From positions 96,410,001 through 96,474,000 of the forward strand of contig OZ024740.1 in the NCBI GenBank assembly GCA_964016885.1: a DNA stretch of 64,000 nucleotides. Direction: 5' to 3'. Both the position numbers and the translations under genes were made by a program. The notes under the pieces were generated by a model that did not search any database, was not told where the DNA came from, and saw only the letters and a list, made by a program, of their open reading frames with translations. The number at the start of each line of letters is the position of its first letter. Positions within the stretch are counted from its first letter, which is position 1. Origin of the DNA: Eledone cirrhosa (taxonomy: Eukaryota). Positions 8,783-8,959 of this stretch are shown here, piece after piece.

Positions 8783-8959
8783 AATTTAGTATATCTACTA
8801 ACATATGCGTACAGATGTACACTAATGCTGGCAAATACATAAGTTATGTCATAGTACCTAGGTCGTTCAATGCAGGAGGATGCAGAACAATAATATGAAA
8901 GACGTAAAATAAGAAAATTAAAAAAAAAATTAAAAAAATTAACTAACTTACTAAAATTT
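8783..8959 (-). mobile_element. Fragment of HHR tandem-unit family A
   Basis: Matches 34906-35082 and 35450-35626; flanked by microsatellite on both sides. Confidence 0.9.

What the first reader, a model, noticed from the sequence alone, without database searches (positions are those of the whole stretch)
8783..8959. Family A insertion ends map to the predicted ribozyme cut site and to a shared priming site
Seen: three separate insertions (8959 on -, 31256 on +, 35702/35703 on +) start 6-9 nt downstream of the predicted cleavage TT^GGAGTGAAATTTTAG. Three (8783, about 31950, about 34902) end at nearly the same point about 170 nt downstream (GATATACTAAAT), next to (TA)n/(GA)n. Inference: the reverse-transcribed RNA had an HHR-generated 5' end and was primed internally at a microsatellite-like patch. 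This would be genomic evidence that the ribozyme was active.
Basis: partly seen in the sequence, partly recalled or inferred. Interest (0 to 1): 0.72.

Follow-up and report, generated by a model that had tools for sequence, protein, structure and literature searches.

The report
Ribozyme cut footprint in twin-primed retrozyme
These are copies of an abundant 544-base mobile repeat carrying a predicted self-cutting RNA motif: nearly all copies end at one of two fixed internal points, one per arm, while only a small minority start at the predicted cut, which likely records the ribozyme cutting some of the copied RNAs in the living cell.

Summary
Partly confirmed. Three window arms start 7-9 nt after the predicted hammerhead cut and three end at unit position ~185. 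In 120 position-ordered loci, 187 of 205 arms end at these two sites, and 60 of 61 clean head-to-head pairs use one site per arm: the Penelope two-start 'tail' signature. The 5' claim fails as a rule: 189 of 203 passages read through the cut site. It holds for a minority: mirror junctions at the first palindrome after the cut occur at 82 loci against 6, 5, 1 and 0 at four control palindromes, starts at exactly +1 are about 3-fold above neighbouring positions, and in 9 of 14 two-armed +1 loci both arms start there. Best reading: a Penelope-mobilised retrozyme, primed twice on one RNA that was usually uncut or circular and sometimes ribozyme-cut. No RNA data; no autonomous partner found. The scan reported similar things on other DNA of this genome.

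The parts
8783..8959 (-). Single-arm copy, unit +7 to about +183 (end site E2); (TA)n on the 5' side, (CT)15 then (TA)42 on the 3' side
8670..8783 (.). (TA)42 target microsatellite and (CT)15 run at the E2 end
31256..31950 (+). Single-arm copy of subfamily B (531-bp unit), +7 through one whole unit to E2, then (TA)73
31706..31784 (+). Minimal type-I hammerhead, core intact (CUGAUGA at 31710), predicted cut between 31780 and 31781; read through, not an end
34902..35702 (-). Left arm of a head-to-head insertion: +475 to +187 (E2), 801 bp, crosses two cut sites (35632, 35088)
35085..35163 (-). Hammerhead with intact core and one helix-I mismatch at +2 (GCAG)
35702..36310 (+). Right arm: +9/+10 to +73 (end site E1), 609 bp, crosses one cut site (36238), ends in (TA)43
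36163..36241 (+). Hammerhead with a core change in this copy (CCGAUGA)
34909..34927 (-). Conserved hairpin motif just before E2 (UUAGUA-GAUA-UACUAA); also at 8786, 31401, 31930, 35453, 35855; 1336 exact matches in the genome
35621..35626 (-). AAATTT palindrome at unit +7..+12, the preferred joining point of the two arms

Best explanation
The copies belong to a 544-bp non-coding, hammerhead-bearing repeat whose arms end at two fixed sites (+72 and +185, one per arm) in (TA)n, which likely means a Penelope-type RT/endonuclease cuts a (TA)n tract and primes both DNA ends on one RNA, and a minority of those RNAs likely had a ribozyme-cut 5' end. Shown: two 3' sites, one per arm; microsatellite flanks; most arms cross the cut site; excess of arm starts at +1 and of mirror joints at +7..+12. 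Inferred: the two cDNAs are made on one RNA molecule (multimer or circle), usually stop at scattered points and are joined by 0-7 nt microhomology or filler. Cleavage is therefore likely real but partial: it marks roughly 4% of passages above background and is not what normally sets the 5' end.
For: 3' ends: 97 at +178..198, 90 at +62..77, 18 elsewhere, of 205 segments; 60 of 61 pairs with two canonical ends are mixed (P 5e-17). One template: arms of one insertion differ by a median 2.0% against 6.9% between loci, 30 pairs; in several pairs the E2 arm stops at the E1 site (L031, L052, L156, L169). Cut-site signal: 13 of 187 arms start at +7..+12, 4.2 times expected; exact mirror joints at AAATTT +7..+12 in 82 loci against 5 at the identical palindrome at +46..+51, 6 at the 12-bp palindrome directly before the cut, 1 and 0 at two 8-bp palindromes. 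Starts at +1: 21 true ends of 26 matches, against 9 of 11 at +3 and 6 of 10 at -2; 3.4-fold after correcting for the filters, P 0.0003, or 2.7-fold, P 0.005, counting loci and dropping two ambiguous ones. In 9 of 14 two-armed loci with a +1 start the partner also starts at +1/+2; six blunt +1/+1 joints with 0-3 filler bases against none without microhomology at 525-529. 44 of 48 arms at AAATTT mirror joints cross no cut site, against 156 of 203 passages in the sample (P 0.027). Ribozyme fold kept: 93.4% of cells paired, 5 pairs with two-sided change, core invariant in 16 chosen haplotypes.
Against: 189 of 203 passages read through the cut; 2007 exact intact cut junctions in the genome. In the unbiased sample only 1 of 187 arms starts in +1..+6 (0.34 of expected), and the window 500-511 is as enriched (18 arms, 3.6 times expected) although it lies before the cut. 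The motif is atypical (extra A before GAAA, 4-bp helix I, U at position 17) and was not assayed; PMC4209133 found low activity for such motifs, and bioRxiv 10.64898/2026.07.22.740005 saw cleavage in 1 of 9 dimers. PMC11167929 found cleavage dispensable in vitro and no RNA reads ending at the cut. The covariation set was chosen by me and the sequences are related. No autonomous partner was found. Filter corrections use assumed flank base frequencies.
Confidence: 0.68

Rival explanations
1. No cleavage: the reverse transcriptase stalls at the foot of the folded or protein-bound hammerhead (helix I starts at +4 from the enzyme's side), and the stalled cDNAs join at the nearby palindrome.
For: The main peak is at +7..+12, not +1, and a second peak lies in the helix II region at 500-511.
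Against: Helix I has only 4 bp; stalling before it does not give ends that keep GGAG and stop at +1, nor blunt +1/+1 joints; the excess is at +1, not +3.
Confidence: 0.15
2. The physical RNA end at +1 is a transcription start, not a ribozyme cut.
For: Any fixed RNA 5' end gives the same run-off pattern; one +1 end (L252) has an extra G although its internal junction is of the GGAG type, as a cap could give.
Against: The end coincides to the base with the scissile bond predicted from the fold; blunt joints in L243, L256/257, L259 have no extra G; in L245 and L247 the extra G is the subfamily's own first base. Promoter elements were not tested.
Confidence: 0.08
3. The mirror joints arise at DNA level: fold-back self-priming of one cDNA, or later deletion of the centre of a long palindrome down to a short palindromic seed.
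For: Mirror joints are perfect palindromes; 18 of 76 pairs have 5' ends within 30 nt of each other against 11.6 expected.
Against: The longer 12-bp palindrome 7 nt upstream and an identical AAATTT downstream are rarely used; fold-back does not explain why the second arm ends at the other fixed site in 60 of 61 pairs, nor pairs whose arms do not overlap.
Confidence: 0.06
4. One reading: all or most templates are ribozyme-cut monomers.
For: 3 of 4 arms in this window start at +7..+10.
Against: 145 of 187 arms cross at least one cut site, one crosses six.
Confidence: 0.03

Closest known systems
Penelope-like elements; Poseidon PAc of Anolis (Frangieh et al. 2024, PMC11167929; parts 1-2 of 4 read, whole main results)
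   Same: Internal start of reverse transcription at two sites of the RNA ('tail'), AT-rich target, both target strands cut and extended, hammerhead upstream of the start sites.
   Different: No ORF; tail about 113 nt rather than 30-40; one site per arm counted here (60 of 61); a genomic footprint at the ribozyme cut, which that paper did not see in RNA reads.
Metazoan non-LTR retrozymes (Cervera and de la Pena 2020, PMC7229834, passages read; Li et al. 2026, bioRxiv 10.64898/2026.07.22.740005, parts 1-3 of 5 read)
   Same: Non-coding tandem unit with one type-I hammerhead per unit, dispersed monomers to multimers, proposed Penelope mobilisation.
   Different: Unit of 531-544 nt, longer than the 170-400 nt of the 2020 paper (within the 51-972 range of the preprint); minimal PLE-type motif with a long helix II insert; RNA and circles not shown here; the parts read do not map copy ends on the unit.
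[quoted passage not shown]
   Same: Helix I of 4 bp, longer helix II, extra base after A9, palindromic helix III fit for dimer folding (12-bp duplex, -10.8 kcal/mol).
   Different: An extra A between helix II and GAAA in all 16 aligned haplotypes; about 40 nt inserted in loop II with its own covarying hairpin.
PLE insertion structure in Craig et al. 2021 (PMC8557442, passages read)
   Same: 5' truncation, partial tandems, inverted 5'-truncated copy, tail at one end only, (TA)n bias, non-autonomous pLTR elements.
   Different: States that hammerhead function in EN+ PLEs is unclear; gives no end map relative to the cut in the passages read.
R2 elements with HDV-like ribozyme (Eickbush et al. 2013, PMC3774820, passages read)
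   Same: Genomic 5' junctions record the ribozyme cut; joining by microhomology and non-templated bases after run-off.
   Different: In R2 the cut defines full-length ends; here only a few percent of arms, a different ribozyme and a different enzyme family.

Membership tests
Metazoan non-LTR retrozyme | Tandem non-coding unit with one type-I hammerhead per unit | tested here: met
   544-bp period, arrays to 6 units; no ORF of 170 codons listed over the window copies
Metazoan non-LTR retrozyme | Hammerhead core and helices conserved with covariation | tested here: met
   Rfam gave 0 hits at gathering score in the window; extra A before GAAA is atypical
Metazoan non-LTR retrozyme | Self-cleavage of the RNA | tested here: inconclusive
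   only indirect genomic footprint
Metazoan non-LTR retrozyme | Expressed as linear and circular monomer RNA | not testable with these tools
   no RNA holder listed
Penelope-like element (mobilised by) | Two internal start sites giving a tail at one end | tested here: met
Penelope-like element (mobilised by) | Partial tandem and inverted 5'-truncated copies in AT-rich or microsatellite targets | tested here: met
   76 head-to-head pairs and 53 single segments in 119 loci; 186 of 187 ends abut a microsatellite
Penelope-like element (autonomous) | ORF with RT and GIY-YIG endonuclease between pLTRs | tested here: not met
   unit repeats directly on itself; no flanking ORF belongs to the copies
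Penelope-like element (non-autonomous derivative) | Sequence homology to the pLTR of an autonomous PLE of the same genome | tested here: inconclusive
   only low-complexity hits in the shown part of the output against 30 loci of one PLE family; other families not compared

The most novel reading that the evidence does not exclude
Genomic copies of this family are a fossil record of in vivo hammerhead cleavage and of the Penelope insertion mechanism: a dimeric RT primes both ends of a cut (TA)n tract at two fixed sites of one RNA; cut linear RNAs give short mirror insertions hinged at the cut, and re-ligated circles give the longer read-through arms (one locus carries the same ribozyme-lacking joint at +1 in all three passages). 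Cutting and circularising would then be the function of PLE-type minimal hammerheads.
Probability: 0.4. Interest if true: 0.72.

Novelty: new variant of a known kind. Interest (0 to 1): 0.52.

Why it matters
The function of hammerheads in Penelope-type elements is described as unclear (PMC8557442), cleavage was dispensable in vitro and unseen in RNA reads (PMC11167929), and minimal motifs cut poorly in the tube (PMC4209133). A base-precise excess of copy starts at the predicted cut is indirect evidence that such a motif does cut in the germ line, and the one-site-per-arm rule gives a concrete, testable model for how the inverted structure and the 'tail' of these elements arise. The element class itself is known.

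Tried and rejected
Rfam scan of the window: 0 hits. Folding of single hammerheads is not better than shuffles (z -0.6 to -1.4 and +0.4), so the motif rests on core and covariation, not on stability. RNA runs: no RNA holder listed; contigs of two runs of unrecorded kind were laid and say nothing on RNA ends. A-to-G editing scars: none (A>G 4.9 against T>C 5.3 per 1000, P 0.67). Circle against linear multimer by within-arm and between-arm divergence: not resolved. Autonomous partner: not found among 30 loci of the PLE family of window 18208; Pfam gave only a weak GIY-YIG match for 1 of 3 window ORFs. One search was meant to count +1 starts but mostly returned a subfamily with one more G at the cut (608 matches; 27 or 28 of the 30 loci shown are read-through); replaced. 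The first hammerhead scanner had a bug and printed nothing; redone. One search used 22 ends at +1; the right count is 21. Rows dropped before counts: 6 of 211 segments (two duplicated loci, one cut by the locus edge, two of a sister family); 5 of 26, 4 of 10 and 2 of 11 matches that are variants or internal joints, not ends. The control at +46..+51 is a 6-bp palindrome only in about half the copies (all 5 hits are A-type), which halves but does not remove the contrast. Literature: five searches answered; none listed a paper that maps PLE or retrozyme copy ends on the hammerhead cut, judged from listings and the parts read; supplements (for example Fig. S2 of PMC11167929) were not seen and may bear on this.

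Full report
What is in the window. The repeat has a 544-bp unit (window 35089-35632, minus strand); I number it from the first base after the predicted cut. Four arms lie in three insertions: 8959 to 8783 (minus, +7 to about +183), 31256 to 31950 (plus, +7 through a whole unit to about +185), and a head-to-head pair joined at 35702, whose minus arm runs from +475 to +187 and whose plus arm runs from +9/+10 to +73.

The ribozyme. Each unit holds a minimal type-I hammerhead: helix I of 4 bp, CUGAUGA, one extra base, helix II of 6 bp with an inserted hairpin, an extra A, GAAA, a palindromic helix III and GUU before the cut. In 16 haplotypes that I chose from 156, 93.4% of cells pair, 5 of 19 pairs change on both sides, and slid controls pair 38-46%; the sequences are related, so this is support, not proof. 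The only spread core change I saw is at position 7, in part of a subfamily; that this position is free is recalled knowledge. The build matches the PLE motifs of PMC4209133, which are thought to act as dimers and cut weakly. Rfam does not detect it.

Sample. Two exact motifs gave 1336 and at least 7517 matches in the 3.0-Gb genome. I took the first 100 listed places of each, in order along contig 1, as 120 loci outside the window and mapped 211 segments, of which 205 were kept.

3' ends. 97 segments end at +178..198 (E2), 90 at +62..77 (E1), 18 elsewhere. Of 76 head-to-head pairs, 61 have two canonical ends, and 60 of these have one E1 and one E2. 186 of 187 canonical ends abut a microsatellite. 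Both sites lie at a TATAT patch of the unit that can pair with a (TA)n primer, but a third patch at +417 is not used, so the choice is likely made by the protein. This is the signature that PMC11167929 traced to two internal start sites, AT-rich targets and extension of both target strands, and that PMC8557442 describes as tail and inverted copy. An ORF-bearing PLE family in this window shows the same two-armed, two-ended form at 32874-34092. Arms of one insertion differ by a median 2.0%, against 6.9% between loci, though the partner is the nearest sequence in only 13 of 30 pairs. In four pairs the E2 arm stops at the E1 site, as expected if both primers sit on one RNA.

Starts are spread over the whole unit. 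Of 203 passages that reach +12, 14 stop in +1..+12 and 189 go on through the cut; 145 of 187 arms cross at least one cut site. Only one arm starts in +1..+6, and the window 500-511, before the cut, is as enriched as +7..+12. A cut monomer cannot be the usual template.

It is the palindrome AAATTT, so I asked whether palindromes alone explain it. Exact mirror joints number 82 loci there, 5 at the same hexamer at +46..+51, 6 at the 12-bp palindrome directly before the cut, 1 at 307-314 and 0 at 504-511. Of 24 of these loci examined, 44 of 48 arms cross no cut site. Starts at exactly +1 were counted with filters: 21 true ends of 26 matches, against 9 of 11 at +3 and 6 of 10 at -2, a 2.7- to 3.4-fold excess after correction with assumed base frequencies. 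Of 14 two-armed loci with a +1 start, 9 have the partner at +1 or +2 too, six of them found again as blunt joints with 0-3 filler bases, together with one further locus among the six rows (five shared, one new); a control at 525-529 gave two joints, both at a microhomology. In the subfamily with one more G at the cut, ends keep that G and stop (L245, L247). This is what two cDNAs running off one physical RNA end would leave; trimming back to the first palindrome explains the 6-9 nt offset. R2 gives a precedent for junctions that record a ribozyme cut and are joined by microhomology (PMC3774820).

Mechanism. Shown: the end positions and counts above. Inferred: a Penelope-type enzyme supplied in trans cuts (TA)n, primes both ends at E1 and E2 of one RNA, and the two cDNAs are joined head to head; single arms join the target directly, as two of the window's copies do through TA/AAAT microhomology. 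The template is mostly an uncut multimer or a circle (not resolved) and in a few percent of passages a ribozyme-cut RNA. Rivals are stalling at the fold (0.15), a transcription start at +1 (0.08) and DNA-level fold-back or deletion (0.06).

Limits. No RNA data, no cleavage assay, no autonomous partner. Pattern counts need exact matches and are lower bounds.

Novelty. The class (retrozyme, PLE-mobilised), the internal start and the inverted form are in print. The one-site-per-arm rule and a genomic footprint of the hammerhead cut were not found in five literature searches (listings and the parts named under Closest known systems). The scan's own earlier notes report both on other DNA of this genome; they are leads only: my two-site reading was written before I saw them, one note prompted the editing test, which was negative, and another the partner search, which found nothing.

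Noticed in passing
E2 ends genome-wide; window 8753-8783, 34893-34902: A (CT)3-29 run follows 35 of 97 E2 ends but 1 of 90 E1 ends; it tracks a TCTCT seed in the unit's own sequence (11 of 18 against 2 of 20) and is absent where the same site is read through. Possibly repeated, telomerase-like copying at the start of reverse transcription.
   Followed up: partly
L238-L240 (G000:C1:299080954-299081491): All three passages of one two-armed insertion lack the whole hammerhead and are joined exactly at +1: fits one circular RNA ligated at the cut after loss of its 3' end; one locus only.
   Followed up: partly
L171-L200: A subfamily (most of 608 matches) has one extra G exactly at the cut, and part of it changes core position 7; L246 has a 3-base duplication at the cut. 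Possible ligation scars.
   Followed up: no
window 32874-34092 and 13000-14646: Two-armed inverted insertion (552-nt arms, 98%) of the 3' end of a PLE whose ORF fragment with a weak GIY-YIG match and a minimal hammerhead lies at 13000-14646 minus; the arms end about 50 nt apart, the longer one followed by (TC)n(TA)n.
   Followed up: partly
window 18208-19281 and 45232-46188: Two more Penelope-like RT fragments by motif; the first has at least 114 close relatives, some with open frames of 740-816 codons.
   Followed up: partly
window ~32460 and ~34540: Decayed copies of another short hammerhead family, seen intact in L008, L093, L137, L235.
   Followed up: no
L138, L141, L183: A sister family shares sequence after the cut with this one but has a different hammerhead and ends at the equivalent first site.
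   Followed up: no
unit 500-511: Second hot spot of 5' ends in the loop of the helix II insert (18 of 187 arms, 3.6 times expected) without mirror joints; unexplained, perhaps stalling or nicking of the RNA loop.
   Followed up: partly
window 8200-8660: Inverted/duplicated segment next to the 8783 copy that looks like another repeat family.
   Followed up: no
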